56,892 nt of DNA from an uncultured Peptostreptococcaceae bacterium (GTDB lineage: Bacteria > Bacillota > Clostridia > Peptostreptococcales > BM714): positions 1 to 56,892 of the forward strand of contig CAZXWC010000003.1 of NCBI GenBank assembly GCA_964644525.1. The letters are read 5' to 3'. The notes under the pieces are model-generated. The model saw only the letters and a program-made list of their open reading frames with translations. It was not told the DNA's origin and ran no database searches. This document shows positions 3,473 through 24,765 of the stretch, one piece after another. Position numbers and translations under genes: made by a program. The first letter of the stretch is position 1; every line of letters starts with the position of its first letter.

Positions 3473-3501
3473 TTGACCGACAAATCTATATTTATTACAA
3501 T
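3473..3501 (+). promoter_or_regulatory. sigma-A promoter of the two-component operon
   Basis: TTGACC-N17-TACAAT. Confidence 0.65.
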
Positions 3502-3530
3502 TAACGAATAATGATTTGGAAAGGGAACAT

Positions 3531-5534
3531 ATGAAAAGTAAAAAAAATATCGGGTTTATATTTGCGGGAATTCTTATGATTTTAGCAGTTGCTTTAATGC
3601 TCGACACAAGTATGCAGAACAAGCCTCAATCGACGAGAGAACTGTTGACAATGGAGGAGAAGGCTTGGCTTTATGAGCAAGGTTCTTTAATATATTCGGC
3701 GGATGACAATGCTCCTCCCCTGCGTTTTGTCGATGAAAGCGACAAGCAGTACAAAGGTGTTGTGGTGGACTATGTGAGTCTTCTATCCCTCGAGCTTGGA
3801 GTAAATATAGAAGTGCGTCCCAAGCTTTGGCAGGAGGCTCTCAGGAGTCTGTCCGAAGGGGAAACAGATATGTGCGATATGTTTAAAAGTCCTGAACGTT
3901 CAGAAGTTTTTCTTTTCAGCGACCCCATATACAATCTCAGGGCTGTTCTTGTAACAAGGGACAATCCTGGACATATTGACGAGATGACATTTGCAACGCA
4001 GAAGGGGGATTACTTGAATGAATGGCTTTTGGAAAATTATCCGGAAATAGAGATTGTATACACAGACAATGTCAGTGAAGCAGTAGACCTTCTCTTAGCC
4101 GGGGAAGTTGAAGCGGTTGCAGGTGATGAGCCGGTAGTTCTGTACCAGATTAAAGAAAAGAATGCTGAAGACAAATTGCAGATAATGGAAAGACCTCTGT
4201 ATGAGAACGAGGTGGTTTTTTCTATTCCAAAATCAAAACCTGAGCTTTTGCCAATTTTAAACAAGGGAATTGCGGCTCTTGCGGAAACTGACCAGCTTGA
4301 GAGAATTCAGCAAAAGTGGTTTGGAATATCTACACCAATAGTGCAAGAGCCCGACATGAGCAGAAAGATCAAATATATCTTTGCAGGGGTGGGCATGTTG
4401 ATTGTATTGATGACAGGAATGGCATATTGGAACTATTCTCTTCAAAGCGAAGTCGAGAGGCGAACAAAGGAAGTTATCAGCAGCAAGGAAAACCTGAGGT
4501 TGACACTCGACGGAATGAAGCAGTTTATTGTGCTGTTCAACATGCGATTGGAGACGGCCAACATAAACAAACCTTTTTTAGATTATCTTGGATTGACCCG
4601 TTCCGAGGCGAGGGGAGAGGTTTGCAGTGAAATATTCAAGGGATTCAAACCGATGGACATAACATCGATGATAAGGGATTGTGTTGAATCAGAAAGCGGA
4701 TTGGAAAAGGAAATTTCAGTAGGCAAGGATTATTATATGCTTCAAATTTATCCATTAAAGAATGACGAAGGCAAACTGAAAAACATACTTGTTGTCCTTT
4801 CAAATGTCACCAGGGAAAAGAACAATGAAAGACAATTGCTGCAGGCGGGTAAAATGGCTGCAATAGGACAGTTGGTTGCTGGCATGGGACATGAGATAAG
4901 AAATCCACTGGGAATAATAAGAAATCACAGTTTTATTCTAAGATCGTTGGAACCAAATGAAAAAACGGAAAAATCTCTTGATTATATAGATAACGCCGTT
5001 GAAAGAGCTAATCGAATAATTGGAAATTTACTTGAATTTTCAAGACTTACGGATGACTCAAAGCAAAATATCGGCCTGAAAAAGCTGATTTCCGGAATAT
5101 TCGACTTGGAGAGCAAGACATTGATGAAGAAAAATATACGCTACGAGATTAATTGTGACGGTGACTTGTATTTTAGATCAAACAGAGAGGCGCTCAAACA
5201 TATTTTTATAAATCTTATATCAAATGCCGTAGATGCCATAGGAGAAGACGGATTAATTAGGGTGTCGGCTGCGGAAGATGAAAATAATGTCAAAATGACA
5301 GTTGAGGATTCAGGTAATGGGATATCCGAAGATGAAATAGAAAATATTTTTAATCCATTTTATACGACCAAGGGTCCGGACAAGGGTACAGGGCTGGGCT
5401 TGTATATAGTATATAACGAGATAAAAAAACTAGGCGGGGCTGTTTATGTTGAGAGCTCTTGCGAAGATGGGACTGCATTTATGATAATATTTCCAAAAGG
5501 TGGAGAGGTGAAGAATAATGAACGATTCAGTTAA
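3531..5534 (+). CDS. Sensor histidine kinase with extracellular amino-acid-binding (family 3 SBP-like) domain, PAS-like region, HisKA and HATPase
   Basis: N-terminal TM; SADDNAPPLRF...G...DY and DAVAGDEPV-like SBP signatures; second TM; GHEIRNPLG H-box; NLISNAVDA, DSGNGI, FNPFYTTK, GTGLGL. The ATG at 3531 has an AAGGGA RBS (track start is TTG 3516). Confidence 0.9.
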   Translation: MKSKKNIGFIFAGILMILAVALMLDTSMQNKPQSTRELLTMEEKAWLYEQGSLIYSADDNAPPLRFVDESDKQYKGVVVDYVSLLSLELGVNIEVRPKLWQEALRSLSEGETDMCDMFKSPERSEVFLFSDPIYNLRAVLVTRDNPGHIDEMTFATQKGDYLNEWLLENYPEIEIVYTDNVSEAVDLLLAGEVEAVAGDEPVVLYQIKEKNAEDKLQIMERPLYENEVVFSIPKSKPELLPILNKGIAALAETDQLERIQQKWFGISTPIVQEPDMSRKIKYIFAGVGMLIVLMTGMAYWNYSLQSEVERRTKEVISSKENLRLTLDGMKQFIVLFNMRLETANINKPFLDYLGLTRSEARGEVCSEIFKGFKPMDITSMIRDCVESESGLEKEISVGKDYYMLQIYPLKNDEGKLKNILVVLSNVTREKNNERQLLQAGKMAAIGQLVAGMGHEIRNPLGIIRNHSFILRSLEPNEKTEKSLDYIDNAVERANRIIGNLLEFSRLTDDSKQNIGLKKLISGIFDLESKTLMKKNIRYEINCDGDLYFRSNREALKHIFINLISNAVDAIGEDGLIRVSAAEDENNVKMTVEDSGNGISEDEIENIFNPFYTTKGPDKGTGLGLYIVYNEIKKLGGAVYVESSCEDGTAFMIIFPKGGEVKNNERFS

Positions 5535-6882
5535 GTTGCTCATAGTAGACGATGAAATAGAATATAGAGAAACATACCGCATGCTTTTGGAAAACAGGGG
5601 TTTTATTGTCGGAGAGGCGGGCAGCGCCGATGAGGCTTTGGATATTTTGTCCAAGGAGTATTATCCTATAGTTATTTCGGATGTGATAATGCCAGGAAAA
5701 GACGGACTTTATCTGCTTGACAGAATTAAAAGCAAATATGGGGGAAGTGTTGAAGTAATAATTGTAACCGGATATGGAAGCATAGAAAATGCAGTTAAGG
5801 CCATAAGGGTCGGCGCTTTGGGATATTTCATAAAAAGCGGAAATCCGGATGAGCTTTTCAGGGAAATTGATAAGGCAAGAAGATTGGTTCAATTTGAAAA
5901 GAAGAAGGAACTCGAAGAACGCAGCAGCGGGTCGGGTTTATTTTTGCACCAATCTGAAAATCCGCGAATACGCAAGATACTTGAGGATATACAAACACTT
6001 TCCAAGTCATCGTGCAATGTTCTTATTACCGGAGAATCCGGAGTTGGGAAAGAAATTTTCGCAAAACACATACACGACAGCAGTGAAGTTGAAGACGGAA
6101 TTTTTATGGCTACGAATTGCCAGGCATTTTCGGAAAACCTGCTTGAGGCAGAATTGTTTGGGCATGAAAAGGGGGCTTTTACGGGAGCGGCTGCAAAAAG
6201 GATAGGACGTTTTGAAGAAGCTAATGGAGGAACAATGTTTCTTGATGAAATAGGTGAAATTTCTCAAAGCACCCAGGTGAAACTTTTGAGAGTCCTGGAT
6301 AATAGATATATAGAAAGGATTGGGTCAAACAAGAAAATACCTGTCAATTTCAGGTTGATAAGCGCTACAAACAGAAACTTGCAGGAGGAGATATCTGATG
6401 GAATTTTTCGTGAGGATCTTTACTACAGGATAAACACCGTGACGATTGAAATTCCGCCTCTGAGGGAACGGCGTGAGGATTTGGAAGGAATGATTGGTTT
6501 TTTTGTCAAACTTTTAAGCAGCGAAATAAAAAAGGACATAAAGGGTCCTACTGCAGATACTATGAATTACCTTCTTGAATATGATTATCCAGGGAATGTA
6601 AGGGAGCTAAAAAATATAATAGAAAGATTGATAGTTCTTTCGAAGGATGGATATTTGAGAATAGAAGAGGTTGAAGAGGGAAACGCCAAGAGGTGTGGTC
6701 AAAAGAAAGCGGCAACAAGCGAAATTCTCCCCTACAAGGAAGCTAAGCGTAGATTTGAAAAGGAGTATATTGCTCGGGTTTTGTCGGCAAATGAAAACAA
6801 TATAACAAAGGCGGCACAACTTATGAAAATAAGCAGACGCCAATTGTTCAATAAAATAAGAGAATACAAGCTGAAACAGTGA
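5518..6882 (+). CDS. Sigma-54-dependent response regulator (NtrC/AtoC family)
   Basis: Receiver LIVDDE...SDVIMP; AAA+ GESGVGKE, ELFGHEKGAFTGA, FLDEIGE, LYYRIN, YPGNVRELKN; C-terminal Fis-type HTH (NITKAAQLMKISRRQL). Confidence 0.95.
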   Translation: MNDSVKLLIVDDEIEYRETYRMLLENRGFIVGEAGSADEALDILSKEYYPIVISDVIMPGKDGLYLLDRIKSKYGGSVEVIIVTGYGSIENAVKAIRVGALGYFIKSGNPDELFREIDKARRLVQFEKKKELEERSSGSGLFLHQSENPRIRKILEDIQTLSKSSCNVLITGESGVGKEIFAKHIHDSSEVEDGIFMATNCQAFSENLLEAELFGHEKGAFTGAAAKRIGRFEEANGGTMFLDEIGEISQSTQVKLLRVLDNRYIERIGSNKKIPVNFRLISATNRNLQEEISDGIFREDLYYRINTVTIEIPPLRERREDLEGMIGFFVKLLSSEIKKDIKGPTADTMNYLLEYDYPGNVRELKNIIERLIVLSKDGYLRIEEVEEGNAKRCGQKKAATSEILPYKEAKRRFEKEYIARVLSANENNITKAAQLMKISRRQLFNKIREYKLKQ

Positions 6883-6907
6883 AAGCAAAAACAATGTCAA
6901 GAAAAAG

Positions 6908-6924
6908 TTGGCATTGTTTTTGCA
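6908..6924 (+). promoter_or_regulatory. sigma-54 (-24/-12) promoter of ortAB
   Basis: TTGGCATTGTTTTTGCA: GG(6910-11)-N10-GC(6922-23). Confidence 0.8.
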
Positions 6925-6962
6925 TTAATATAGAGTGATAATAAAATAAGGAGGCTGAGAAA

Positions 6963-7268
6963 ATGAATAAAGCAACAAAAGGCACTTGGGTTGAGATTGA
7001 GAATGTTGTTCTCGAGGTGGGACAGCGTGCCCCACAGGTGCCGAAAGATACTAAAAACACGCCTTTGATTATGTGGACAAAAGGTCTTTTGATTGACAAA
7101 GAGGCAGAAATAGGCCAAGAGGTTGAGGTGGAAACATTGTCAGGAAGGTTGGCCAAGGGCAAGATGACTGATGTGAATCCGCGTTTTGAACATGATTTCG
7201 GTAAACCTGTTGATGTTCTTGTTGAAACTGGAATATCATTAAAAAAAGAAATAGGAGGTATCCGATGA
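6963..7268 (+). CDS. ortA: 2-amino-4-ketopentanoate thiolase alpha subunit
   Basis: KGTWVEI...L..GQRAPQVP.DT...PL.MW.KG.L...G..V...T.SGR...G....NP...HDFG.P matches OrtA; adjacent to OrtB. Confidence 0.85.
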   Translation: MNKATKGTWVEIENVVLEVGQRAPQVPKDTKNTPLIMWTKGLLIDKEAEIGQEVEVETLSGRLAKGKMTDVNPRFEHDFGKPVDVLVETGISLKKEIGGIR

Positions 7269-8665
7269 GGGATTTGACATACGGAGCGGTAATGGGCCGA
7301 AAGAATGAAATAATGAAAAAAGCGGTAGGAATCGATTACAGTGAGTTTGAATTTGGAAAAATAGGTTTTGACTATGAAAAGATGATGAATAATGTTGCCT
7401 ATGAAATGGAGGACATGATAAAGATTCAGAAAGAGACAAAGGTTGGAAACACACCTCTTTTTGAACTGCACAACATAAATCGTTTGATCAATGCTAATTC
7501 TGCTGAAGGCAAAGGCGGACGTATTTTCATAAAGGATGAAGCGGCGAATGCATCTGGTTCCTTTAAAGCAAGAAGAGCAGCTATATCGGTTTATCATGCG
7601 CAAAAAATGGGCTACAAGGGGGTAATCGCTGCAACAAGCGGAAACTATGGCGCGGCAGTTGCGTCACAGGCCGCGCAGCGAGGGCTTAAGTGCATCATAG
7701 TTCAAGAGGTTTTTGATTCGCAGAAGAAGGGGCAGCCTGAAATTATAGAAAAGGCCAGAAAGTGCGAAGCTTTTGGGGCCGAGGTAATTCAGCTTACCGT
7801 AGGGCCCGAATTGTTTTACACATTCCTTAAACTTCTTGAAGAGACTGGCTTTTTCAATGCGTCTCTCTATACTCCATTTGGAATTGCAGGAGTTGAAACA
7901 TTGGGCTATGAAATAGCTGAGCAGATGAAATCGATGCAAGGGCACTATCCCGACTACGTAGTTGCAACCCATGCAGGAGGAGGAAATCTTACAGGGACAG
8001 CGAGAGGACTTATAAAGGGGGGAGCGAAAAGCTGCAAAGTATTCGGCGCATCAGTTGATCTTAAAGGTCTTCATATGGCATCGGACAGGGACTTCAATAG
8101 AAAATCATTCACAACAGGACATACGGGTTTTGGAATTCCCTTTGCCACTCAACCAGACCGAGCCGATGTTCCCAGAAATGCCGCCAGGGTTCTTAGATAC
8201 ATGGACAGATATCTTACGGTTACACAGGGAGAAGTTTTTTATGTTACAGAGATGCTTGCGCAAATCGAAGGCATAGAAAGAGGCCCGGCGGGAAATGTTT
8301 CTTTGGCAGCCGCCATATCGCTTGCGATGGAGGTGAATGAGGGTGAAATTATTGTCGTCCAGGAGACTGAATATACAGGAGCAGGCAAACATCCTATGCC
8401 TCAACTTACTTTCGCCAGAGAAAATGGAATAAAGATATACAGAGGTGAAATACAAGAAAATGTTCCGGGTGAAACAATAGTTCTTCCCAATCAATTCTCG
8501 CAGATAAATGCAAAAGAGCTTGATTTGAATAAAATGAAAGAAAGATATATTGATAATGTAACCAAAGGCTACAAGTATGAAGATTTGACTGAAGATGATG
8601 TTAAATATCTTGAAGAGGAAATTCGTGTTGACAGAATCGATATAGAAAAAGCAATGAACAAATAA
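7265..8665 (+). CDS. ortB: 2-amino-4-ketopentanoate thiolase beta subunit (PLP-dependent, fold type II)
   Basis: TYGAVMGRKNEIMK, GNTPL, KDEAANASGSFKARRA (PLP Lys), ATSGNYGAAVA, FTTGHTGFG, ETEYTGAGKHP. Confidence 0.9.
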   Translation: MRDLTYGAVMGRKNEIMKKAVGIDYSEFEFGKIGFDYEKMMNNVAYEMEDMIKIQKETKVGNTPLFELHNINRLINANSAEGKGGRIFIKDEAANASGSFKARRAAISVYHAQKMGYKGVIAATSGNYGAAVASQAAQRGLKCIIVQEVFDSQKKGQPEIIEKARKCEAFGAEVIQLTVGPELFYTFLKLLEETGFFNASLYTPFGIAGVETLGYEIAEQMKSMQGHYPDYVVATHAGGGNLTGTARGLIKGGAKSCKVFGASVDLKGLHMASDRDFNRKSFTTGHTGFGIPFATQPDRADVPRNAARVLRYMDRYLTVTQGEVFYVTEMLAQIEGIERGPAGNVSLAAAISLAMEVNEGEIIVVQETEYTGAGKHPMPQLTFARENGIKIYRGEIQENVPGETIVLPNQFSQINAKELDLNKMKERYIDNVTKGYKYEDLTEDDVKYLEEEIRVDRIDIEKAMNK

Positions 8666-8672
8666 ATCCATA

Positions 8673-8720
8673 GCCATGAAATATTTTTCCACCAGGAAAT
8701 TTATTTCATGGCATTTTTTT
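8673..8720 (+). terminator. Terminator after ortB
   Basis: GCCATGAAATA / TATTTCATGGC inverted repeat followed by a T run. Confidence 0.7.
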
Positions 8721-8781
8721 TCATGAAACGCAAAAATCACTTTAATTGTGTTGAAAAATACTGTTTTTATAGATGAATATC

Positions 8782-8798
8782 TTGGCACGACAATTGCG
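8782..8798 (+). promoter_or_regulatory. sigma-54 (-24/-12) promoter of the NhaC-family transporter
   Basis: TTGGCACGACAATTGCG, near-consensus TGGCAC-N5-TTGC. Confidence 0.85.
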
Positions 8799-8838
8799 AC
8801 TATTATATTTGCACTTAAAAATTTAGGAGGTATATAGC

Positions 8839-10287
8839 ATGAAAGACAAGAAACTCGAGTTTTACGGCGGCGAATGGATGTCCTTTATTCCATTTATTGT
8901 TTTCCTTGTACTCATCGTAATGACTACATTTGTTGCAGGTTCTATTTCCAACGGAGCTCTTTGGATTCCGGCCTTCATGGCCATGATTGTTGCATTTTTC
9001 TTTGCAAAGGACAAAAAAATCTTCAGCGAAACAATAATAAGCGGAATGGCAAGCAGAGAGGCTATAATTCCTGTGGTTTGTTGGATCTTTGCAGGAGTAT
9101 TCTCAAGAATACTTAGAGAATCGGGCCTTGCAGGAGGAATAGCCGGAATGGCTGCCAACATCGGTATAAGCGGGACCTTGTTTGTGGTGGTTTCATTTAT
9201 TGCATCTGCTGTATTTGCAACTGCATCAGGAACTGGATTTGGGACAATTGCAGCTGGAATGGGAGTTCTTTATCCTGCAGGAGTTGCGCTTGGGGCTCAC
9301 CCGGCACTGTTAGCAGGTTCAATTATATCCGGAGGAGCATTTGGAGACAATATGGCTCCTGTTTCGGATACTACAATTTGCTCGGCGACATCGCAGGGAG
9401 TTGATGTGCCCGGCGTTGTCAAGTCAAGGCTGAAATACGCATTAACTGCGGGGGCAATAACCATCGTGGGAATAATTATATTTGGAATGACTTCGAGTGG
9501 CACAGGCAACCCTGTGGGCCCAATAGAATATGAATCGATAGCCCTTTGGATGCTTGTTCCTGTAGCGCTTACGATTTATGTTGCAGTCAAGTCTGGTGAT
9601 ATAATAGTCGCCACTACTATCGGAAGTGTTATGGCAGGATTTACTGCTGTGCTTACAGGCATAATGGATTTCATACAAATAGATCCGGGTTCGGAAGTTA
9701 CAAAGAAAGCTTTGTTCAGGGTAGTAGGGGAAGGCCTTGACAGAACCGTTGATGGTGTAATTTATACCGGAATAAACAGCATGATCCAGGTTGTGCTATT
9801 AGCGATTCTTCTTTTTGGCTCTATTGCGATCATGAGAGCTGGTCATGGGGATGTAAAACTTTTGAAATCACTTGGAAAGGTTGCCAAGACTGCAAAAAGT
9901 GCTGAAATGTCAATAGCGGGAATGATTGTTACTCTTTCTGCACTTATGGGTCTGAATGCACCTGCCATATTGGCTATTGGATCTTCATTTGCCAAACCTC
10001 TTTCAAGAAAGCATGGAATCAGCCCATATAGGACAGCAAACTTGCTGGATGCAATTTCCTGTACATTGGTCTATTCCTTGCCATGGACACCTGCCATCAT
10101 ATACACCATAAGCTTTACAAGGGACAGCGCTTATCCTTTGACTGCTACACAGGTGACACCGTTTGTGTTCTATGCGGGAGCTATGCTTGTTGTAATGATT
10201 GCCAGCATATTCCTTGGTATAGGCAGGGATGACAACATGAATGGAAGAACCATAGCTGACTTTGAAAAAGAAGAAAAGGCAATGTAG
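8839..10287 (+). CDS. NhaC/Na+:H+ antiporter-family transporter, probably a Na+/amino acid transporter
   Basis: Polytopic membrane protein; SGTGFGTIAA, SGGAFGDNMAPVSDTTI signature of NhaC/MetT/ArcD-like carriers. Confidence 0.8.
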   Translation: MKDKKLEFYGGEWMSFIPFIVFLVLIVMTTFVAGSISNGALWIPAFMAMIVAFFFAKDKKIFSETIISGMASREAIIPVVCWIFAGVFSRILRESGLAGGIAGMAANIGISGTLFVVVSFIASAVFATASGTGFGTIAAGMGVLYPAGVALGAHPALLAGSIISGGAFGDNMAPVSDTTICSATSQGVDVPGVVKSRLKYALTAGAITIVGIIIFGMTSSGTGNPVGPIEYESIALWMLVPVALTIYVAVKSGDIIVATTIGSVMAGFTAVLTGIMDFIQIDPGSEVTKKALFRVVGEGLDRTVDGVIYTGINSMIQVVLLAILLFGSIAIMRAGHGDVKLLKSLGKVAKTAKSAEMSIAGMIVTLSALMGLNAPAILAIGSSFAKPLSRKHGISPYRTANLLDAISCTLVYSLPWTPAIIYTISFTRDSAYPLTATQVTPFVFYAGAMLVVMIASIFLGIGRDDNMNGRTIADFEKEEKAM

Positions 10288-10451: not shown

Positions 10452-10655
10452 ATGGACAGCGTGAAAATCATTTCTGGAAATTGCAAAGGTTGTGGATACT
10501 GTGTGGTGGTTTGTCCTAAAAAAGTTCTGGAAATAGGGGAATCTTCTAATAAAATGGGTTACAGGTATGCCACCGTAGCCAGGCCGGATGACTGCATAGC
10601 GTGCAAACTTTGCGCGGTTATGTGTCCGGATTCTGCCATAGAAATATTCGAATAG
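10452..10655 (+). CDS. 2x[4Fe-4S] ferredoxin, delta subunit of 2-oxoacid:ferredoxin oxidoreductase
   Basis: CKGCGYCVVVCP and CIACKLCAVMCP. Confidence 0.9.
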   Translation: MDSVKIISGNCKGCGYCVVVCPKKVLEIGESSNKMGYRYATVARPDDCIACKLCAVMCPDSAIEIFE

Positions 10656-10666
10656 GAGGTAAGCAG

Positions 10667-11740
10667 ATGAAAAAACATTTTATGAAAGGCTGCGAGGCGA
10701 TTGCGGAAGCGGCTCTAAGAGCCGGATGCACATTTTTTGCGGGCTATCCCATAACGCCTCAAAACGAGATTCCCGAGTACATGTCAAAAGAGCTGCCTCG
10801 ATATGGCGGAGTTTTTGTTCAAGGGGAAAGTGAAGTGGCTTCTGTCAATATGGTTCTTGGTGCGGCGGCTACAGGAGCGAGGGCTATGACATCTTCGTCG
10901 GGACCGGGAATAAGTTTGAAATCTGAAGGGATATCATACATAGCCGGATCAAGGTTGCCGGCTGTTATTGTCAGTGTTATGAGGGGTGGCCCAGGATTGG
11001 GTTCCATAATGCCGGCCCAGCAGGACTATCTGCAGGCTACCAAAGCTTCGGGTCATGGCGGATTCAGAATGATGGTTTTTGCGCCGTCCACCATACAGGA
11101 AGCTGTAGACTATACCCACAAGGCCTTCGACTATGCAGACAGGGACAGAAATCCTGTAATGATACTTGTAGACGGATGTTTGGGGGCCATGATGGAACCG
11201 GTTATTTTGCCCGAATACCACGACAACTGCAACAAGCAGGAGGACTGGGTTCTCGACGGATGCCGTCAAAGGGAGCCGAGGACTGTTTTGTCAGTATCCC
11301 TTACGGGGGAGCCCCAGGAGCAATTCAATATTGAGATGGCAAAACTTTATGAGTCATGGGCAGGGAAAGACACAGAAGTGGAGCTTTACGAAATGGATGA
11401 CGCGGAAATCGTTTTGGCCGCATACGGCACGAGCGCCAGAATAGCCAAAACTGCAATAGACACGCTCAGGGATGAAGGAGTAAAGGTTGGGCTGGTCAGG
11501 CCAATCACCTTGTATCCCTTCCCTTACGAGGTTTTTGAAAATCTTGACTACAAAAGGGTCAAGCATGTGCTTGATGTGGAAATGTCCATACCGGCGCAGA
11601 TGGTTGACGATGTAAGGCTGGGAGTTTTAAGGCGGGCTGAAATATCAACTTTTGGAAGGTCCGGAGGTGTCATCATAGGAGTGGATGAAATCGTTTGTGA
11701 AGTAAGAAGAATTGCTGAAGGGGGGGCTTTTAATGGATAA
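10667..11740 (+). CDS. 2-oxoacid:ferredoxin oxidoreductase alpha subunit (VorB/KorA-like)
   Basis: MKGCEAIAE...FAGYPITPQ, ESEVAS, TSSSGPG, RGGPGLG; start at ATG 10667 with RBS GGAGGT. Confidence 0.9.
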   Translation: MKKHFMKGCEAIAEAALRAGCTFFAGYPITPQNEIPEYMSKELPRYGGVFVQGESEVASVNMVLGAAATGARAMTSSSGPGISLKSEGISYIAGSRLPAVIVSVMRGGPGLGSIMPAQQDYLQATKASGHGGFRMMVFAPSTIQEAVDYTHKAFDYADRDRNPVMILVDGCLGAMMEPVILPEYHDNCNKQEDWVLDGCRQREPRTVLSVSLTGEPQEQFNIEMAKLYESWAGKDTEVELYEMDDAEIVLAAYGTSARIAKTAIDTLRDEGVKVGLVRPITLYPFPYEVFENLDYKRVKHVLDVEMSIPAQMVDDVRLGVLRRAEISTFGRSGGVIIGVDEIVCEVRRIAEGGAFNG

Positions 11741-12470
11741 AATCTATGGAAGGCCGGAGTCTATAAAGAACAGGGTAAGCACGTACTGCCCGGGCTGTCT
11801 ACATGGAGTTGCAAACAAAATAGTGGCTGAGGTTCTGGATGAGTTGGAACTCAGAGAAAAAACGATATGCGTTTTGCCTGTCGGGTGCGGGACACTAGGA
11901 CTCTTTTATTGGAATGTAGACATGATAAGCTCCGCCCATGGAAGGGCTCCTGCGGTTGCAACGGGCATAAAGAGATGCACGCCCGATAAATTCGTGTTTT
12001 GCTATCAGGGAGACGGGGACCTTGCCGCAATAGGCCTTTCGGAAATAATGCATGCCGCCAACCGTGGAGAGAACATATCCATTATTTTTGTAAACAACAG
12101 CATTTACGGAATGACCGGGGGACAGATGGCTCCCACGACTCTCGAGGACCAGTATTCTACAACCACGCAGAAGGGCAGAAACCCCATTACCGAAGGCTAT
12201 CCTATGAAGATGTGCGAAATAATATCCGGCCTTGAGGCGCCCAAATATGTTGCCAGGTTTTCCATGGATTGCCCAAAGAACATAATAAAGGCAAAGGCGG
12301 GCATCAAGAAAGCCTTTGAGCTGCAGATAGAGAAGAAAGGGTTTTCCTTTGTCGAGCTCATGTCCAACTGCCCGACCAACTGGGGTGTGACCCCGCTTGA
12401 GAGTCTTGAATGGATGCGCCAAAACACACTCAAGGTCTTTCCTCTCGGAGTTTACAAGGAGGTGGAGTGA
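11733..12470 (+). CDS. 2-oxoacid:ferredoxin oxidoreductase beta (TPP-binding) subunit
   Basis: YCPGCLHG, VGC, HGRAPAVATG, GDGD...NN..YGMTGGQ..PT, CPTNWG; start at ATG 11733. Confidence 0.9.
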   Translation: MDKIYGRPESIKNRVSTYCPGCLHGVANKIVAEVLDELELREKTICVLPVGCGTLGLFYWNVDMISSAHGRAPAVATGIKRCTPDKFVFCYQGDGDLAAIGLSEIMHAANRGENISIIFVNNSIYGMTGGQMAPTTLEDQYSTTTQKGRNPITEGYPMKMCEIISGLEAPKYVARFSMDCPKNIIKAKAGIKKAFELQIEKKGFSFVELMSNCPTNWGVTPLESLEWMRQNTLKVFPLGVYKEVE

Positions 12471-12471
12471 T

Positions 12472-12999
12472 ATGAAAAGCAGTCTCATCATAGGTGGTTT
12501 TGGCGGTCAGGGAATAATGCTGATGGGAAAACTCCTGGGCTATACGGCTTGCGAAGAAAGGCTTGAAGCTACATTTCTGCCTTCATATGGACCGGAACAG
12601 CGTGGGGGAACTGCAAATTGCCGGGTGGTTCTTTCGGATAAAAGGATAGGCTCACCCATAGAACCCAAAGTAGATGTTCTGATAGCAATGAACGAACCGT
12701 CGCTTGAAAGATTTGAGGAAGCGGTAAAAAACGACGGTGTGATTTTTGTCAACAGCAGCATAACTTCAAGAGAAACGTCATTCGGTGCGAAGGCTTTTTA
12801 TGTTCCTGCCGATGATATAGCATATAAAATTGGTTCCAAGAAGGTAGCCAACATAGTAATGCTAGGTGCATATATGGCAAAGGCTGGAATTTTGAGCGAA
12901 AGAGCTCTTGAGGCTGTGCTGAATGAAAAATTGGCCAAAAGGCCTGAACTGCTTGAAATGAACCGTTTGGCTTTATTAAGAGGGGCGGAAGTTGTTTGA
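12472..12999 (+). CDS. 2-oxoacid:ferredoxin oxidoreductase gamma subunit
   Basis: GGFGGQG, SYGPEQRGGTA, NIVMLGA; start at ATG 12472. Confidence 0.9.
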   Translation: MKSSLIIGGFGGQGIMLMGKLLGYTACEERLEATFLPSYGPEQRGGTANCRVVLSDKRIGSPIEPKVDVLIAMNEPSLERFEEAVKNDGVIFVNSSITSRETSFGAKAFYVPADDIAYKIGSKKVANIVMLGAYMAKAGILSERALEAVLNEKLAKRPELLEMNRLALLRGAEVV

Positions 13000-13010
13000 C
13001 CTATACGGAA

Positions 13011-13044
13011 AAATCCCCCGTTTGACCGGGGGATTTGTTTGTTT
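13011..13044 (+). terminator. Terminator after the oxidoreductase operon
   Basis: AAATCCCCCG / CGGGGGATTT followed by GTTTGTTT. Confidence 0.75.
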
Positions 13045-13120
13045 ATGATATGAAAAATGTTATTATGAGGCAAGATTAACTGCTTTGCAAATTGGATTTG
13101 ATTAAAGGAGGAAGCCAGCC

Positions 13121-14821
13121 ATGTATTTGCAAACAATAGCTCTTCATCTGTTCAGACAATTGGCTGTCTTTTTTATTTTCATATATCTTTTCAGCAGGTA
13201 CAAGGTTTTCAGAAAGATAATGACGAATGAGACGCCCCGTATTTCAGAGCGGATTTTTCTGATTGTTTTTTTTAGCGGCATATCCATTCTGGGAACGTAC
13301 ACTGGCGTTCCGGTAAAGAATGCCATAGCCAATACAAGGGCTGTAGGGATAATAGTATCCGGGTTGGTTGCGGGTCCGGTAGTTGGGACGATTGTTGGGA
13401 TGATAGTAGGAATACACAGGTATTTTATCGGGGGATTGACAATAATGGCCGCTTTGATATCCGCCGTCGGCCAAGGAATGCTTTCAGGATATCTTAGCAA
13501 GTGGATAAGCAAGCGTAGCCACTACTGGTTTGCGGGTTTCATGATAGGAGGAACGCTGGAAATTTTGCATATGCTGGTTGTAATTGCAATCACCCGCCCC
13601 ATAGAACCGGCTTTGGAACTAGTCCAGGTCATAGGGCCTCCTATGATTGTTGTAAATGCTTTTGGAGTAATGGCATTTTTGGCCATTCTTGAAAATGTGT
13701 ATAATGAACAGGAACGCATACAGGCAAACGCTGCGGAAAAGGCATTACAGATTGCCAACTTGACTTTGCCGGTGTTGAGAAAAGGGCTCAATTACAGTAC
13801 CGCGGAAGAGTTGGTAAGAATAATTTTTGACAGGGTAGAGGGGTTTGAGGCTATCTGCGTTGTTTCCAGAAAAAAAATCCTCGCTTCCATATTGGCTTCA
13901 GACAAAGGAATATTTCCTGAAAAGGGCCAAGAGCTTACTTCCGACAGTGTTCTGCGGGTTATAGAAACGGGCGAGGCTGGAATTGTTCCAAGGAGTTTTG
14001 AAGCTTCAAGCAGCAAAAAAATTACGGATTATACAAAAGTCATCGTTCCGCTAAAAGAGGAGACGGTAGTAGTCGGAGCCCTAATAATGTACAAGCCCGG
14101 ATTCGGAGGGGTTACCGTATTTGAATTGGAGCTTGCAAGGGGGCTTGCGCGTCTTATATCAACCCAATTGGAAATAAGTAAAATGCACCACAATGCTCAA
14201 CTTGTTTCCCAGGCAGAAGTCAAGGCCCTGCAGGCGCAGATAAATCCGCACTTTCTTTTCAATGCAATAAATACGATAGTTTACTACTGTATGACGGATG
14301 CCGAAAAAGCAAAGGATTTGATGATTTTTCTTGGAGAGTTCTATAGAAGCAATTTGACGGATTTCAAGCACAGGGTGGATATTGAAACGGAAATCCGCCA
14401 TGTGAATGCCTATGTCAGAATCGAAATGGCTCGTTTCGGAGAAAGGCTCAAGGTGAATTACCATATCAAGGAAGGAAAGGATTGCCTAATACCGCCTTTG
14501 ATTCTTCAGCCTCTTGTTGAAAATGCAATAAAGCACGGCGTTTTGCCTAAAAAAGAAGGCGGAAAAATAGACATATCGAGCCGAATTGAAGCCGGGCGGC
14601 TGATACTTGTTGTGGAGGATGACGGAGTCGGTACGGACATGGAAAAAATAAGAGGGATACTGAAGTATGATCCGCACCGAAAAAGCATAGGCCTATACAA
14701 TGTTTTCAGCAGAATGAAGAACATCTACAATGAAAATGTCATGCGGGTTGAAAGCGAGCCGGGAAAGGGAACTAAAGTCACAATATCAATACCGATTGAA
14801 GAAGGAGCTGTTCAAGAGTGA
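13121..14821 (+). CDS. LytS/YhcK-family sensor histidine kinase (5TM-LYT, GAF, HisK, HATPase)
   Basis: ANTRAVG...GL.AGP..G membrane domain; LQAQINPHFLFNAIN; LQPLVENAIKHG; DDGVG; GL.NV. Confidence 0.9.
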   Translation: MYLQTIALHLFRQLAVFFIFIYLFSRYKVFRKIMTNETPRISERIFLIVFFSGISILGTYTGVPVKNAIANTRAVGIIVSGLVAGPVVGTIVGMIVGIHRYFIGGLTIMAALISAVGQGMLSGYLSKWISKRSHYWFAGFMIGGTLEILHMLVVIAITRPIEPALELVQVIGPPMIVVNAFGVMAFLAILENVYNEQERIQANAAEKALQIANLTLPVLRKGLNYSTAEELVRIIFDRVEGFEAICVVSRKKILASILASDKGIFPEKGQELTSDSVLRVIETGEAGIVPRSFEASSSKKITDYTKVIVPLKEETVVVGALIMYKPGFGGVTVFELELARGLARLISTQLEISKMHHNAQLVSQAEVKALQAQINPHFLFNAINTIVYYCMTDAEKAKDLMIFLGEFYRSNLTDFKHRVDIETEIRHVNAYVRIEMARFGERLKVNYHIKEGKDCLIPPLILQPLVENAIKHGVLPKKEGGKIDISSRIEAGRLILVVEDDGVGTDMEKIRGILKYDPHRKSIGLYNVFSRMKNIYNENVMRVESEPGKGTKVTISIPIEEGAVQE

Positions 14822-15558
14822 GGATACTCATAGTTGACGATGAATTCCCTGCAAGGGAGATTCTGAAGATGTTTATAAACGAGATAACGGATATAGACGA
14901 AATACACGAGCGCGAGGACGGGCAGGAGGCGGTCGATTTTCTGAAAAAACACGAGGTTGATTTGGTCATGCTGGACATCCATATGAGCGTCAAGGATGGT
15001 TTGGCCGCCGCGGAAGAGATAAACAAGCTCAAGAATCCTCCACTTATAGTGTTTACGACCGGGTATGGAGAATATGCCCTGAAGGCATTCGAGAAAAAGG
15101 CTGTCGACTATATAATGAAGCCTTACTCGAAAGACCGTCTTAAGCAGACCTTCGAACGAATAGCGGAATTGGGAGTGGGGGCATGCTCGCGAGGGGATAT
15201 GGACAATTGGTATATGAAAATGGGAAAGATTCCTGTTTGGTCAAAAGACCGCCTGCTGGTGATAAGCGTGCATGACATACTCTTTGTCACTCCGCACAGC
15301 AAGGGCAAGGTGACGCTGTTTACACGGGATGGAGAGTTTGTCTACAAGGCGAATCTTGGAAGCCTCGAAAAATGTTTCGAGTCTGAATCTTTTCTCAGGG
15401 TCCACAAGAGCTATGTGGTGAATCTGGAGGAGATAGAGGAAATTATGCCGTGGTTCAACAGCACCTATATGCTTTCAATGAAAAACTACGGCGGGGACAA
15501 TATTCCTGTGAGCAGGCACTACATCAGGGAATTTAAAAAGGCAACCGGAATAGAATAG
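14818..15558 (+). CDS. LytTR-family response regulator
   Basis: IVDDE, LDIHM, FTTGY..YAL.AF...AVDY..KP; FLRVHKSYVVN, IPVSR; GTG start overlapping the kinase stop. Confidence 0.92.
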   Translation: MRILIVDDEFPAREILKMFINEITDIDEIHEREDGQEAVDFLKKHEVDLVMLDIHMSVKDGLAAAEEINKLKNPPLIVFTTGYGEYALKAFEKKAVDYIMKPYSKDRLKQTFERIAELGVGACSRGDMDNWYMKMGKIPVWSKDRLLVISVHDILFVTPHSKGKVTLFTRDGEFVYKANLGSLEKCFESESFLRVHKSYVVNLEEIEEIMPWFNSTYMLSMKNYGGDNIPVSRHYIREFKKATGIE

Positions 15559-15580
15559 AAGCCCTGCAACTTGGGGAATG

Positions 15581-15609
15581 AAAATGGACTCTTGGGTCCA
15601 TTTTTTTTT
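15581..15609 (+). terminator. Terminator after the LytTR regulator
   Basis: AAAATGGAC / GTCCATTTT plus a T run. Confidence 0.75.
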
Positions 15610-15753
15610 ATGTTGAAGAAACCGGGCATTGGCCACTAGAAAGTCGTGTTATTTTTATGACAGGCAAGCTTCATCGCCGTCGGAGAAGTGGCCAATCTTT
15701 GGCGGCAGGAATTTATCTATTCATTTGAAACATAATTTATGGGAGGTGCTGTA

Positions 15754-16146
15754 GTGGTAATTTTTGGTGGAATGATATTGTCGATTTGCATGTTTTTAGG
15801 TTTGTTTGTAGGTGATTTGCTTGGAAAAGCCATTGGAGTCAAGGGCAATGTCGGCGGTATCGGATTTGCGATGTTGCTGTTGGTTGTAGTGGTAGAATAT
15901 TTGCTTAAGAACGACATGATTTCTCAGAAGGCGCAGGACGGAATATACTACTGGCGGTATATGTACATACCACTCGTTGTAGCGATGGCATGCAGGCAAA
16001 ATGTTGTTGCAGCACTCAAGGGCGGACCTGTAGCAATAATATCCGGCGTTCTTGTTGTTATAGTACTCTTCTTGCTTGTTCCTTTGGTAACCAGACTTAT
16101 ACCGAAAAGCAAAATGGAATCTATAGATGAAGAGGAGGCGATCTAA
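15754..16146 (+). CDS. madL: Malonate transporter subunit MadL-like
   Basis: GDLLG..IGVKGNVGGIGFAM, YIP.VVAMA..QNVVAAL.GGPVA; start at GTG 15754 with GGAGG 7 nt upstream. Confidence 0.85.
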   Translation: MVIFGGMILSICMFLGLFVGDLLGKAIGVKGNVGGIGFAMLLLVVVVEYLLKNDMISQKAQDGIYYWRYMYIPLVVAMACRQNVVAALKGGPVAIISGVLVVIVLFLLVPLVTRLIPKSKMESIDEEEAI

Positions 16147-16913
16147 TGAATTTTATTGATATTGCTGTTGGCATATTTGTTAAATACGGATTGGTTATGT
16201 CCTTCATAACAATCGGAGCCATAATGGCTGTTTCAATCAAGCTTTCTGAAATGACAAACAAGCGGATTGCGGGATCGGCAATCGCCATAACAATCGGTCT
16301 GGTGCTTGCTTACTTCGGAGGTACATACGCCGGCGGATCTCACGGATTGGCGGACATTGCATTTTTCTCCGGAATTGGAGTAATGGGCGGCAAGATGCTT
16401 TTGAACTACGGGATCGTAGCAACAGCAATGGGCGTTCGTTTTGAAGAAATAAAAAAAGTCGGGTTCGCAGGCGTGCTGTCGCTCTTTGTGGGTGTATTCG
16501 CAGCTTATGGCGTTGGCGCACTTGTAGCATACGCTCTTGGATACCATGATCCTGTCGAGGTTTGCACGATAGCTTCAGGCACAACAGGATTCCTGATTGG
16601 TCCGGTAGTCGGGGAAGCCCTCGGAGGATCTTCGGCAGCGGTTACAATCGGCGTTGCATCGGGCGTGCTCAAGGCAGTTATAGTCATGATTGTCACTCCT
16701 TATGTAGCAAAAAGAATTGGACTTGACAACCCTCAAACAGCAATGGTGTTCGGAGGAATACTCGGTACTACAAGTGGAACTGTTGCCGGCTTGGCAGCGA
16801 CCGATGTCAGATTGGTGCCATACGGAGCAATGACTGCGACATTCTTCTCGGGTCTTGGAGTTCTTCTTTGCCCGTCGGTCATGTTCTTATTGACAAAAAT
16901 GATTCTGGGATAG
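16146..16913 (+). CDS. madM: Malonate transporter subunit MadM-like
   Basis: GSAIAI..GL.LAYFGG...GG..GLADI..F.G.G.MGG, P..AM.FGG..GTTSG...GLAATD..LVPYGAMTATF..GLG.L. Confidence 0.88.
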   Translation: MNFIDIAVGIFVKYGLVMSFITIGAIMAVSIKLSEMTNKRIAGSAIAITIGLVLAYFGGTYAGGSHGLADIAFFSGIGVMGGKMLLNYGIVATAMGVRFEEIKKVGFAGVLSLFVGVFAAYGVGALVAYALGYHDPVEVCTIASGTTGFLIGPVVGEALGGSSAAVTIGVASGVLKAVIVMIVTPYVAKRIGLDNPQTAMVFGGILGTTSGTVAGLAATDVRLVPYGAMTATFFSGLGVLLCPSVMFLLTKMILG

Positions 16914-16923
16914 CTGACTGCAT

Positions 16924-16963
16924 CTGCCGGAGGCTGAAGGTTCTAGCTTCCGGCAGCTTGTTT
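16924..16963 (+). terminator. Intra-operon stem-loop (weak terminator or mRNA stabiliser)
   Basis: CTGCCGGAGGCT / AGCTTCCGGCAG followed by CTTGTTT. Confidence 0.5.
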
Positions 16964-16992
16964 GATTGATTCGGCAATACGGGAGGGATGCT

Positions 16993-17766
16993 ATGAAAAT
17001 TTACGTGCTTACAGACAACCATGCGCTCAGAAATTTTGATGCGGAGTGGGGATTGTCATTCTTCATCGAGGTTGACGGCAAAACGATTCTTTTCGACTAT
17101 GGAAATACGGATCTTTATGTAAAGAACTCGATAAAACTTGGACTTGACATTTTCAATGCCGACTACTTTGTTTTAAGCCACGGACATTGGGACCATGGGA
17201 ACGGTTTGGTGCATTTGCCTAAAGGCAAACTGATTTGCCATCCGGGTTCATTCATAAAAAGATATCGCGGAAGCACATATCTGGGTTTGCCCTACACGTA
17301 CGAGCAAGCCGATGAGAAATTTCAACTCGACATGCACAGCGAAGCGTATGAATTTACCGAAAACATTTTTTTCATGGGGACTGTTCCTAGAGTTACATCG
17401 TTTGAGTCCAAAGGTACAGACCAGATTCTCGAGAGCGGGGAACTCGATCTTGTTGAGGACGACTCCGGGATTGCAATAAAAACGGAAAAAGGGCTCGTGG
17501 TAATTTCGGGATGCGCTCACGCAGGCATTTGTAATACAATCGAACACGCCAAAGAGATCACCGGAGAGGACAATGTCTATGCTGTCCTCGGAGGATTTCA
17601 TTTGAAGGGTGGAGATGAATTGACCGAATTGACCATCGAATATTTGAAGAAGCAGGATATTGAGTTTATCAGCACAAGTCATTGCACGAGATTTCCCGCA
17701 TTGGTCGAGTTTGCTAACGCTTTTGGAAGCAGTCCATTCGAAACTGGACAGATTTTGGAACTTTGA
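16993..17766 (+). CDS. MBL-fold metallo-hydrolase (COG1237-like)
   Basis: EWGLSF, LFDYG, LSHGHWDHGNGL, SGCAHAGICN, LGGFHL, SHCT; start at ATG 16993 with RBS GGAGG. Confidence 0.88.
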   Translation: MKIYVLTDNHALRNFDAEWGLSFFIEVDGKTILFDYGNTDLYVKNSIKLGLDIFNADYFVLSHGHWDHGNGLVHLPKGKLICHPGSFIKRYRGSTYLGLPYTYEQADEKFQLDMHSEAYEFTENIFFMGTVPRVTSFESKGTDQILESGELDLVEDDSGIAIKTEKGLVVISGCAHAGICNTIEHAKEITGEDNVYAVLGGFHLKGGDELTELTIEYLKKQDIEFISTSHCTRFPALVEFANAFGSSPFETGQILEL

Positions 17767-17786
17767 TAGAAAAGGCAGGTGGCGAT

Positions 17787-19164: not shown

Positions 19165-19320
19165 TCAATCAAAAAAATGCTTTGTTTAAGGGAAAAGGGT
19201 GCAAAGCCCTTGCTGTAGTCGCAGCTGTAACCGGGGATGGAAACCGAAAATTGCCACTGTACTCGAATGTATGGGAAGGTTCGGCCAAACAGATGATCCG
19301 GAAGCCAGAAGACCTGACTG
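19165..19320 (+). ncRNA. Cobalamin (B12) riboswitch aptamer
   Basis: TAAGGGAA...GGGTGCAAAGCCC, GCAGCTGTAA, GCCACTG(19253)...TGGGAAGG(19272), B12-box AGCCAGAAGACCTG(19303-16); located upstream of an ECF/DUF4430 operon. The 5' arm is atypical. Confidence 0.8.
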
Positions 19321-19419
19321 AGTGTTTTTCAAATCTGCTCCGGCTCTGAGGGATTGAAAAAATACAGATCTTGATCTAAAGGCTGTTTTTCTATCCCAAA
19401 AGGCAAGAACTGTATGAAT

Positions 19420-19454
19420 CTCTCTCCAAATCGGAGGGAGTTTGTTGTTTTTTT
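19420..19454 (+). terminator. Riboswitch expression-platform terminator
   Basis: CTCTCTCC / GGAGGGAG hairpin plus TTTGTTGTTTTTTT immediately before the RBS of the first gene. Confidence 0.7.
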
Positions 19455-19467
19455 GGAGGAATACATA

Positions 19468-24742: not shown

Positions 24743-24765
24743 ACTGGCAAACGGAGGAACAATCA

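What the first reader, a model, noticed from the sequence alone, without database searches (positions are those of the whole stretch)
3531..10287. Stand-alone ortAB module under a dedicated amino-acid-sensing sigma-54 system
Seen: a kinase with an extracellular amino-acid-binding domain, then an NtrC-type activator with intact GAFTGA, a -24/-12 promoter, ortA-ortB, a terminator, a second -24/-12 promoter and an NhaC-family carrier. Known: in oxidative ornithine degradation (Acetoanaerobium sticklandii, C. difficile), ortAB normally sits in one operon with ord (DAP dehydrogenase), oraSE (B12-dependent ornithine aminomutase) and orr. None of these is in this 57 kb. Inference: either the pathway is split, or this is a paralogous PLP/CoA thiolase unit that senses, imports and cleaves a different amino-keto acid, such as AKP scavenged from other cells.
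Basis: partly seen in the sequence, partly recalled or inferred. Interest (0 to 1): 0.65.

Follow-up and report, generated by a model that had tools for sequence, protein, structure and literature searches.

The report
Sensor-controlled second AKP thiolase cassette
This is a conserved five-gene unit (outside-facing amino-acid sensor kinase, sigma-54 activator, a second copy of the ornithine-pathway thiolase OrtAB, and a carrier) that in related bacteria sits beside a complete ornithine pathway. It probably lets the cell take up and split the pathway intermediate AKP directly.

Summary
HK (3531-5534; SBP_bac_3 domain between two TM helices), an NtrC-type RR with GAFTGA, two -24/-12 promoters, ortA-ortB (both above the NCBIfam equivalog cut-offs), a strong hairpin and an NhaC-family carrier are all present. 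No ord, oraS, oraE, oraF or orr lies in the 57 kb.

New here:
- **Conserved cassette.** The five genes travel together, in varying order and with unrelated flanks, in at least 10 genera.
- **Separate clade.** Their OrtB forms its own clade (SH-aLRT 96), apart from the ord-ortAB-oraSEF-orr copies.
- **Second copy.** Five sequenced relatives carry both the cassette and a full canonical cluster, so there it is a second ortAB and not a split pathway.
- **Same enzyme.** In Wukongibacter the cassette's OrtB is 94% identical to that genome's own canonical OrtB. No fixed active-site changes separate the clades. This argues for AKP as substrate.
- **Hairpin is also a regulator site.** The "terminator" is built from two conserved 14-bp dyads that recur upstream of sigma-54 promoters in other cassettes. 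It is probably the regulator's enhancer site.

Best reading (0.45): sense, import and cleave external AKP or 2,4-diaminopentanoate.

The parts
3473..3501 (+). sigma-70-like promoter candidate for the kinase-regulator pair (TTGACC-17-TACAAT)
   Evidence: Consensus scan only, 10 of 12 matches. Weak evidence.
3531..5534 (+). sensor histidine kinase: TM helix, extracytoplasmic SBP_bac_3 (Venus-flytrap) domain, TM helix, PAS, HisKA, HATPase_c
   Evidence: Pfam hits and translation. The sensor motifs CDMFxSxxR, GDY, GDEPV and IQQKWFG are invariant in 12 cassette kinases. The best PDB sequence matches are sensor flytrap domains 7ejg_C, BvgS and EvgS.
5518..6882 (+). NtrC-type sigma-54 activator: receiver domain, AAA+ with GAFTGA, HTH_8
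   Evidence: Orthologues are 64-67% identical in Paramaledivibacter, Maledivibacter and Geosporobacter.
6909..6923 (+). -24/-12 sigma-54 promoter of ortAB (TGGCATTGTTTTTGC)
   Evidence: Conserved before ortA in L007, L011, L013, L015, L017, L018, L065, L194 and L195.
6963..7268 (+). ortA, small subunit of 2-amino-4-oxopentanoate (AKP) thiolase
   Evidence: NF040739 118.5 bits (cut-off 70); PF22010.
7265..8665 (+). ortB, PLP-dependent subunit of AKP thiolase; member of the cassette-linked paralogous clade
   Evidence: NF040741 811.6 bits (cut-off 550). PLP lysine K101 in GSFKARR, by alignment to threonine synthase 2zsj. Clade support SH-aLRT 96 and FastTree 97.
8673..8721 (+). hairpin plus U8 run (terminator-like), built from two 14-bp dyads, TGAAATATTTTTCC at 8677-8690 and GGAAATTTATTTCA at 8695-8708; candidate enhancer (UAS) of the regulator
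   Evidence: Fold -22.9 kcal/mol, z -6.8. It is the only perfect dyad pair in the 57 kb. The same paired dyads lie about 75-110 bp upstream of sigma-54 promoters in L011, L013, L014, L016, L048, L065 and L194.
8783..8797 (+). -24/-12 sigma-54 promoter of the carrier gene (TGGCACGACAATTGC)
   Evidence: Conserved before the carrier gene, whatever its strand, in L007, L009, L011, L014, L015, L016, L017, L018, L048 and L195.
8839..10287 (+). NhaC-family secondary carrier; proposed importer (possibly exchanger) of the thiolase substrate
   Evidence: PF03553 at 65 bits. TIGR00931 at only 55 bits against a cut-off of 370. 81-84% identical in the three closest cassettes. No close homologue lies beside 101 canonical oraE loci.

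Best explanation
The region is a self-contained sigma-54 regulon.

Proposed mechanism:
1. A membrane kinase binds an amino acid outside the cell through its flytrap (SBP_bac_3) domain.
2. It phosphorylates the NtrC-type activator.
3. The activator binds the paired dyads at 8677-8708 and opens the two -24/-12 promoters.
4. These drive a second, paralogous AKP thiolase (OrtAB) and an NhaC-family carrier.

The substrate enters the pathway at its last step. External 2-amino-4-oxopentanoate (AKP), or its direct precursor 2,4-diaminopentanoate, is imported and split with CoA into acetyl-CoA and alanine. The carrier may work in exchange for alanine.

Shown: gene identities, conservation of the cassette, the separate clade, co-occurrence with the canonical cluster in relatives, and conserved promoters and dyads.

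Inferred: the ligand, the transported substrate, binding of the regulator to the dyads, and the direction of flux.
For: - The five genes stay together in shuffled order and orientation, with unrelated flanks. This holds in this MAG, Paramaledivibacter, Maledivibacter, Geosporobacter, Caloramator, a Lutispora-like contig, Terrisporobacter, Thermosediminibacteraceae, Wukongibacter and several MAGs.
- No other enzyme is conserved with them.
- The cassette OrtB is one clade, containing 109 of 203 sequences.
- The full canonical cluster is present in the same genome in M. halophilus, P. caminithermalis, Wukongibacter, C. quimbayensis and A. gelatinilytica.
- The thiolase is interchangeable with the canonical one. 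The Wukongibacter cassette OrtB is 94% identical to that genome's own operon copy. There are no strict clade-specific residues, and 176 columns are more than 95% conserved with the same residue in both clades.
- Variants enter at the same metabolic level. L013 puts ord and an alanine-type symporter under the same dyads and sigma-54 promoter. L019 adds two aminotransferases, an FAH-family hydrolase and the same symporter type. None has oraSE.
- The Thermotogota sister group has ord-ortAB only.
Against: - There is no direct evidence that AKP or 2,4-diaminopentanoate occurs outside cells.
- Every named cassette genome that could be checked also has the canonical ornithine cluster. That also fits a role as an accessory to ornithine fermentation.
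- The sensor ligand is unknown. Several invariant acidic residues in the sensor could suit a basic ligand such as ornithine (inference only).
- The ortA promoter has no dyad pair close upstream in this window. It would have to use the pair 1.76 kb downstream.
- This MAG's own genome was not searchable.
Confidence: 0.45

Rival explanations
1. Accessory arm of a precursor pathway. The kinase senses external ornithine or arginine (or a hydroxyproline isomer) and the carrier imports it. The upstream enzymes (Orr, OraSE and Ord, or an epimerase plus HplG) are encoded elsewhere. The extra thiolase is switched on early to keep the reactive intermediate AKP low.
For: - All checkable cassette genomes also carry ord-ortAB-oraSEF-orr. 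For G. ferrireducens this rests on PMC6615313.
- In C. difficile the canonical operon itself ends with an nhaC predicted to carry arginine or ornithine (PMC6615313). The Caminicellaceae canonical clusters lack a carrier.
- SBP_bac_3 domains commonly bind polar or basic amino acids (family knowledge).
- HplG gives a second route to AKP (PMC13450708).
Against: - It gives no reason for a long-lived separate thiolase clade.
- The cassette carrier is not close to anything next to 101 canonical oraE loci.
- Variants add ord or aminotransferases but never oraSE or orr.
- No glycyl radical enzyme lies in the window or next to any cassette.
- The cassette dyads are absent from the canonical clusters of the same genomes.
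Confidence: 0.27
2. A thiolase with changed specificity. The cassette OrtAB cleaves a different 2-amino-4-oxo acid (another acyl group or the other enantiomer), imported by the carrier.
For: - It is a separate, well-supported clade, 68-71% identical to canonical copies.
- A few positions discriminate the clades well: K59 next to the GNTPL motif, A96 (P in canonical) five residues before the PLP lysine, K154, Y228 and V309.
Against: - No position is fixed differently in both clades at 85% or more.
- All recognisable fold-type-II PLP motifs are shared.
- It scores well above the OrtB equivalog cut-off.
- Wukongibacter uses a 94% copy of its canonical enzyme in the same kind of cassette.
- In L013 a cassette-clade OrtB is paired with a canonical-type Ord, 78% identical.
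Confidence: 0.1
3. Simple split in this MAG. This is its only ortAB, ord/oraSE/orr lie elsewhere, and all respond to ornithine.
For: - The MAG's genome could not be searched.
- The metagenomes that hold the window hold several oraE-like contigs. One has a depth like the window's in two runs: 19.6 and 14.1, against about 21 and about 14.
Against: - In all five relatives checked by sequence, the canonical cluster carries its own ortAB between ord and oraS.
- The window's OrtB sits deep inside the cassette clade.
- The oraE-like contig of matching depth has about 1.35 kb upstream of oraE. By arithmetic on the coordinates (inference), that is room for oraS and part of an ortB.
Confidence: 0.06
4. 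Alanine-centred or reverse function. The kinase senses alanine, the carrier moves alanine, and OrtAB condenses alanine with acetyl-CoA towards AKP and 2,4-diaminopentanoate.
For: In two variants the NhaC carrier is replaced by sodium:alanine-symporter-family carriers. A D-aminopeptidase-type S58 peptidase sits in the Wukongibacter cassette.
Against: A Claisen-type condensation that spends acetyl-CoA is energetically unattractive for a fermenter (general knowledge). There is no biosynthetic context. Sigma-54 two-component control together with a carrier is typical of catabolic uptake.
Confidence: 0.07

Closest known systems
Oxidative L-ornithine degradation operon ord-ortA-ortB-oraS-oraE-oraF-orr(-nhaC) under the one-component sigma-54 activator OrdR (Acetoanaerobium sticklandii, C. 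difficile; PMC6615313)
   Same: - The same enzyme family for the last step; OrtA and OrtB both score above the equivalog cut-offs.
- Overlapping ortA/ortB reading frames.
- Sigma-54 dependence.
- A carrier of the NhaC superfamily in some versions.
   Different: - No ord, oraSE, oraF or orr.
- The activator is a response regulator paired with an extracytoplasmic sensor kinase, where OrdR is a cytoplasmic PAS-type one-component activator.
- Different enhancer motif.
- The OrtB belongs to a separate clade.
- The carrier is not orthologous.
- In relatives the cassette exists in addition to this operon.
HplG pathway of anaerobic hydroxyproline degradation (trans-4-hydroxy-D-proline to AKP by a glycyl radical enzyme, then OrtAB; PMC13450708)
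   Same: It uses OrtAB outside the ornithine operon, with AKP supplied by a route that needs no B12 aminomutase.
   Different: No glycyl radical enzyme, activase or epimerase lies in the window or beside any cassette examined.
NtrB/NtrC- and AtoS/AtoC-type sigma-54 two-component systems; flytrap-domain sensor kinases such as BvgS and EvgS
   Same: - Domain order of both proteins.
- GAFTGA.
- -24/-12 promoters with paired dyad sites about 100 bp upstream.
- A periplasmic SBP-like sensor.
   Different: It scores far below every named equivalog (AtoS 202 against 646; AtoC 379 against 714). It has a single flytrap domain. The ligand is unknown. RR-type activators are the minority, about 10%, among Clostridiales sigma-54 activators (PMC6615313).
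NhaC family (TC 2.A.35) carriers, including the malate/lactate exchanger MleN (own knowledge)
   Same: Pfam Na_H_antiporter fold. A precedent in the family for substrate/product exchange.
   Different: It is not an NhaC equivalog (55 bits against 370). The proposed substrate is an amino acid. No transport data exist.

Membership tests
AKP thiolase OrtAB (EC 2.3.1.263) | OrtA and OrtB each match the curated equivalog models above cut-off | tested here: met
   NF040739 118.5 against 70; NF040741 811.6 against 550.
AKP thiolase OrtAB (EC 2.3.1.263) | Fold-type-II PLP enzyme with the Schiff-base lysine, the TSGN loop and the glycine-rich phosphate loop | tested here: met
   K101 in GSFKARR aligns to GSFKDRG of threonine synthase 2zsj. 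ATSGNYG and AGGGN are invariant in 20 OrtB sequences.
AKP thiolase OrtAB (EC 2.3.1.263) | CoA-dependent cleavage of AKP to acetyl-CoA and alanine | not testable with these tools
   Enzyme assay needed. The indirect argument rests on the 94% Wukongibacter copy.
Canonical oxidative ornithine operon | ortAB flanked by ord upstream and oraS-oraE-oraF-orr downstream | tested here: not met
   No homologue in the 57 kb. The window's OrtB lies outside the clade of operon copies.
Canonical oxidative ornithine operon | ord, oraSE and orr present elsewhere in the same genome | tested here: inconclusive
Metagenome and run searches gave only a weak depth match.
HplG hydroxyproline pathway | Glycyl radical enzyme HplG with its activase near ortAB | tested here: not met
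   No PFL-like or Gly_radical protein in the window or in cassette loci. The rest of the genome was not searchable.
Sigma-54-dependent two-component system (NtrC class) | Receiver domain, AAA+ domain with GAFTGA, and HTH_8 in the regulator; HisKA and HATPase_c in the kinase | tested here: met
Sigma-54-dependent two-component system (NtrC class) | Target genes preceded by -24/-12 promoters and upstream activator sites | tested here: met
   Promoters at 6909 and 8783, conserved in relatives. Paired dyads at 8677-8708, conserved. Binding itself was not tested.
Na+/H+ antiporter NhaC (TIGR00931 equivalog) | Score above the equivalog cut-off | tested here: not met
   55.4 bits against 370. It is a family-level member only (PF03553, 65 bits).

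The most novel reading that the evidence does not exclude
AKP and/or 2,4-diaminopentanoate are shared extracellular metabolites in amino-acid-fermenting communities. This cassette is a dedicated device for them. A flytrap kinase detects the leaked intermediate outside the cell. An NhaC-type carrier takes it up, perhaps in exchange for alanine. A private thiolase turns it into acetyl-CoA without the B12-dependent steps. The same logic would explain the aminomutase-less ord-ortAB sets in Thermotogota and other phyla.
Probability: 0.35. Interest if true: 0.7.

Novelty: new variant of a known kind. Interest (0 to 1): 0.55.

Why it matters
OrtAB is annotated everywhere as the last step of ornithine fermentation. 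About 97 of the 120 best database matches to this OrtB fall in the cassette clade, so many of these annotations belong to a differently wired unit with its own outside-facing sensor and carrier.

If the unit works on external AKP or 2,4-diaminopentanoate, three things follow:
- It would show cross-feeding on a Stickland-pathway intermediate.
- It would give a first ligand for a clostridial RR-type sigma-54 activator.
- It would assign a substrate to an NhaC-family amino-acid carrier.

All of this is directly testable in cultured Geosporobacter ferrireducens, Maledivibacter halophilus or Caloramator quimbayensis.

Tried and rejected

**Attempts to find the MAG's own oraE:**
- A metagenome scan with M. 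halophilus OraE returned 80 loci, none from the four JGI samples that hold the window.
- Four OraE clusters were looked up by identity. None lay in the window's samples.
- Laying four runs that hold the window on the M. halophilus cluster showed at least four different oraE-like populations. Presence in the sample therefore says nothing about this genome. One contig matches the window's depth in two runs only.
- Fingerprinting contigs by mismatch counts did not discriminate between candidates.

**Other checks that gave nothing:**
- Strict specificity-determining positions between the OrtB clades: none.
- A glycyl radical enzyme next to cassettes: none. The only one found lies beside a canonical cluster, in L074.
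- A riboswitch or T-box at the cassette that would name the ligand: none.
- An OrtAB structure in the PDB: none.
- Fonknechten 2009: not held.
- Earlier scan notes: nothing on a canonical cluster in this genome or on look-alike cassettes.

**Rejected.** The third -24/-12-like site at 51483 lies inside an FtsX-type permease gene, so I treat it as chance.
Full report
**What is in the sequence**

- The kinase ORF runs 3516-5534, with its likely ATG at 3531. It has an SBP_bac_3 domain (E 6e-26), then PAS, HisKA and HATPase_c. Hydrophobic helices lie before and after the SBP domain, so the domain faces outward.
- The regulator (5518-6882) has a receiver domain, a sigma-54 interaction domain (E 2e-67) and HTH_8. 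Its GAFTGA is intact.
- TGGCATTGTTTTTGC (6909-6923) lies 40 nt before ortA. TGGCACGACAATTGC (8783-8797) lies 42 nt before the carrier.
- OrtA scores 118.5 bits (cut-off 70) and OrtB 811.6 bits (cut-off 550) on the NCBIfam equivalog models. The two frames overlap by 4 nt.
- The carrier (8839-10287) belongs to the Pfam Na_H_antiporter family. It scores only 55 bits on the NhaC equivalog, whose cut-off is 370.
- tblastn with Ord, OraS, OraE, OraF and Orr from Maledivibacter halophilus found nothing in the 57 kb. Family scans of nearly all other ORFs agree.

**A conserved cassette**

The identical OrtB occurs on metagenome contigs from two ENA and four JGI samples, always in the same context. The closest named OrtB proteins are from Paramaledivibacter caminithermalis, Maledivibacter halophilus and Geosporobacter ferrireducens, at 78-82% identity. 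Each sits in the same five-gene row, kinase-regulator-ortA-ortB-carrier, with entirely different neighbours.

More distant members keep the same five genes but reshuffle them:
- The carrier lies on the opposite strand in Caloramator quimbayensis and in a contig carrying the OrtB of the Lutispora thermophila cluster (P0083).
- The carrier lies before ortA in Terrisporobacter petrolearius, a Bacillota MAG and a Thermosediminibacteraceae MAG.
- The order is ortA-ortB-carrier-S58 peptidase-kinase-regulator in Wukongibacter.

No other enzyme is conserved with them.

**A separate clade, and a second copy**

I built an IQ-TREE tree of 84 OrtB proteins. These came from species-representative genomes, from contigs fetched by exact-protein look-up and from the window. 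All but one of the kinase- or carrier-linked copies fall on one side of a branch with SH-aLRT 96. The ord-ortAB-oraSEF-orr copies fall elsewhere.

With the 120 best database matches added, the cassette clade holds 109 of 203 sequences, with FastTree support 97.

Five genomes carry both the cassette and a complete canonical cluster:
- M. halophilus: L009 and L022. All six scored canonical proteins pass the equivalog cut-offs (OraS was recognised by tblastn).
- P. caminithermalis: L007 and L185.
- Wukongibacter sp. M2B1: L065 and L186.
- C. quimbayensis: L194 and L066.
- Anaeromonas gelatinilytica D2Q-14: P0075 and L026.

Anaerosolibacter has both protein types. For G. ferrireducens the canonical operon is reported in PMC6615313. 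The two M. halophilus OrtB paralogues are 71% identical. In relatives, then, the cassette is an extra ortAB and not the displaced half of one pathway.

**What the thiolase acts on**

Three observations point to AKP itself.

1. Wukongibacter is the tree's exception. The OrtB in its cassette is 94% identical to the OrtB of its own canonical operon. Its kinase and regulator have the usual domains, and its carrier is NhaC-family but only 49% identical to the window's. The same dyads and a -24/-12 promoter precede its ortA. A canonical AKP thiolase has therefore been recruited recently into this kind of cassette.
2. No alignment column is fixed differently in the two clades, and 176 columns of about 466 are more than 95% conserved with the same residue in both. 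Some positions do discriminate well: K59, A96 (P in canonical), K154, Y228 and V309. Without a solved or exportable structure I could not place them, and the PDB holds no OrtAB.
3. The variants enter at the same metabolic level.
   - In a Tissierellales MAG (L013), the kinase and regulator are followed by ord and a sodium:alanine-symporter-family carrier. These sit behind their own -24/-12 promoter and three dyads, with ortAB divergent.
   - In a Sedimentibacter MAG (L019), a one-component sigma-54 activator precedes a class I/II aminotransferase, an FAH-family hydrolase, ortAB, a class-III aminotransferase and the same symporter type.
   - Neither variant has oraSE. The sister group in Thermotogota is ord-ortAB only.

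**Regulation**

The -24/-12 elements before ortA and before the carrier recur at the orthologous places in ten or more loci, whatever the strand of the carrier.

The hairpin after ortB is a convincing terminator shape: -22.9 kcal/mol, z -6.8, followed by U8. Its arms are two 14-bp dyads of the form [T/G]GAAA-N4-TTTC[C/A], at 8677-8690 and 8695-8708. They are the only perfect pair in the window. The same paired dyads, 18-22 bp apart, lie about 75-110 bp upstream of a sigma-54 promoter in L011, L013, L014, L016, L048, L065 and L194.

I take them to be the regulator's enhancer site. This is an inference. In this window the ortA promoter has no such pair close upstream. It would have to use the pair 1.76 kb downstream.

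The dyads are absent from the canonical clusters of the same genomes, so the two regulons look separate. The sensor domain keeps CDMFxSxxR, GDY, GDEPV and IQQKWFG invariant across 12 kinases that are otherwise 35-62% identical. That suggests one common ligand.

**Literature**

Nie et al. (PMC6615313) list ord-ortBA-oraSEF-orr-nhaC under the one-component activator OrdR. They catalogue a single RR-type activator in G. ferrireducens, Gferi_16135, with GSFTGA. The cassette regulator in L011 has GSFTGA, so it is probably that protein. I found no description of its targets there.

A recent review records that the glycyl radical enzyme HplG opens trans-4-hydroxy-D-proline to AKP (PMC13450708). No such enzyme is in the window or beside any cassette.

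**What could not be settled**

The indirect routes failed or were weak. The soil metagenomes that hold the window contain several oraE-like populations. One such contig has a depth like the window's in two runs.

**Verdict**

- Best explanation (0.45): the cassette detects an external amino acid, imports it and cleaves it directly, with AKP or 2,4-diaminopentanoate as substrate.
- Main rival (0.27): it senses and imports a precursor such as ornithine, and the extra thiolase only backs up the canonical pathway.

It is a new variant of a known kind and of moderate interest. All open points are testable in cultured relatives.

Noticed in passing
window 33841-34081 (+), gene 34015-35388: A T-box leader (98.4 bits, gathering score 93) lies directly upstream of, and overlaps the called start of, an Ammonium_transp family gene. 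A T-box on an Amt-type transporter is an unusual pairing. The specifier codon was not read.
   Followed up: no
window 19166-19335 (+), genes 19414-29835: A cobalamin riboswitch (96.9 bits) precedes an operon with a duplicated ECF-type ATPase and a 1689-aa protein carrying SLH, Big_2 and DUF4430 domains. It is not conserved next to the cassette in relatives.
   Followed up: partly
window 54902-54997 (+): A pan motif RNA (55.4 bits) lies upstream of a Rossmann/DUF2520 gene (55120-55998).
   Followed up: no
L013 4787-9459 (-) and 9659-11407 (+): A cassette variant in a Tissierellales MAG. Kinase, regulator, ord (78% identical to M. halophilus Ord) and a sodium:alanine-symporter-family gene lie on one strand, behind a -24/-12 promoter and three dyads. 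ortAB is divergent.
   Followed up: partly
L019 4246-14349: An ortAB of the cassette clade under a one-component PAS sigma-54 activator. It sits with a class I/II aminotransferase, an FAH-family hydrolase (a possible acetylpyruvate hydrolase), a class-III aminotransferase and an alanine-type symporter. This suggests a CoA-independent side route from AKP.
   Followed up: no
L065 9980-17631 and L186 6187-7596: In Wukongibacter sp. M2B1 the cassette OrtB is 94% identical to the canonical-operon OrtB of the same chromosome. An S58 (DmpA-type) peptidase gene sits between the carrier and the kinase.
   Followed up: partly
L074 3504-5897 (-): A glycyl radical enzyme (PFL-like plus Gly_radical) lies about 2.6 kb upstream of a canonical ord-ortAB-oraSE cluster in a Syntrophomonadaceae MAG. 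It may join a hydroxyproline-type route to the ornithine cluster.
   Followed up: no
L061 and L088 (Thermotogota), ord-ortA-ortB: ord-ortAB sets with no aminomutase or racemase within 10 kb. In L061 they lie next to proC and a LIV-type binding protein. They are sister to the cassette clade.
   Followed up: partly
L001 1-2922 (same contig, upstream of the window): On the 128-kb ENA contig that contains the window, an arginase-family gene, an Amdase-family gene and an Nramp gene lie just upstream of glnA. An arginase would yield ornithine. This is not conserved in relatives.
   Followed up: no
window 10601-18998: Downstream of the carrier lie a ferredoxin, a VorB-type 2-oxoacid:ferredoxin oxidoreductase (alpha, beta and gamma subunits), a LytS/LytTR pair, MadL/MadM, a metallo-beta-lactamase-fold gene and a family-III CoA-transferase. 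This is a second sensor-plus-transporter-plus-enzyme unit, for an organic acid. It is specific to this organism's contigs.
   Followed up: no
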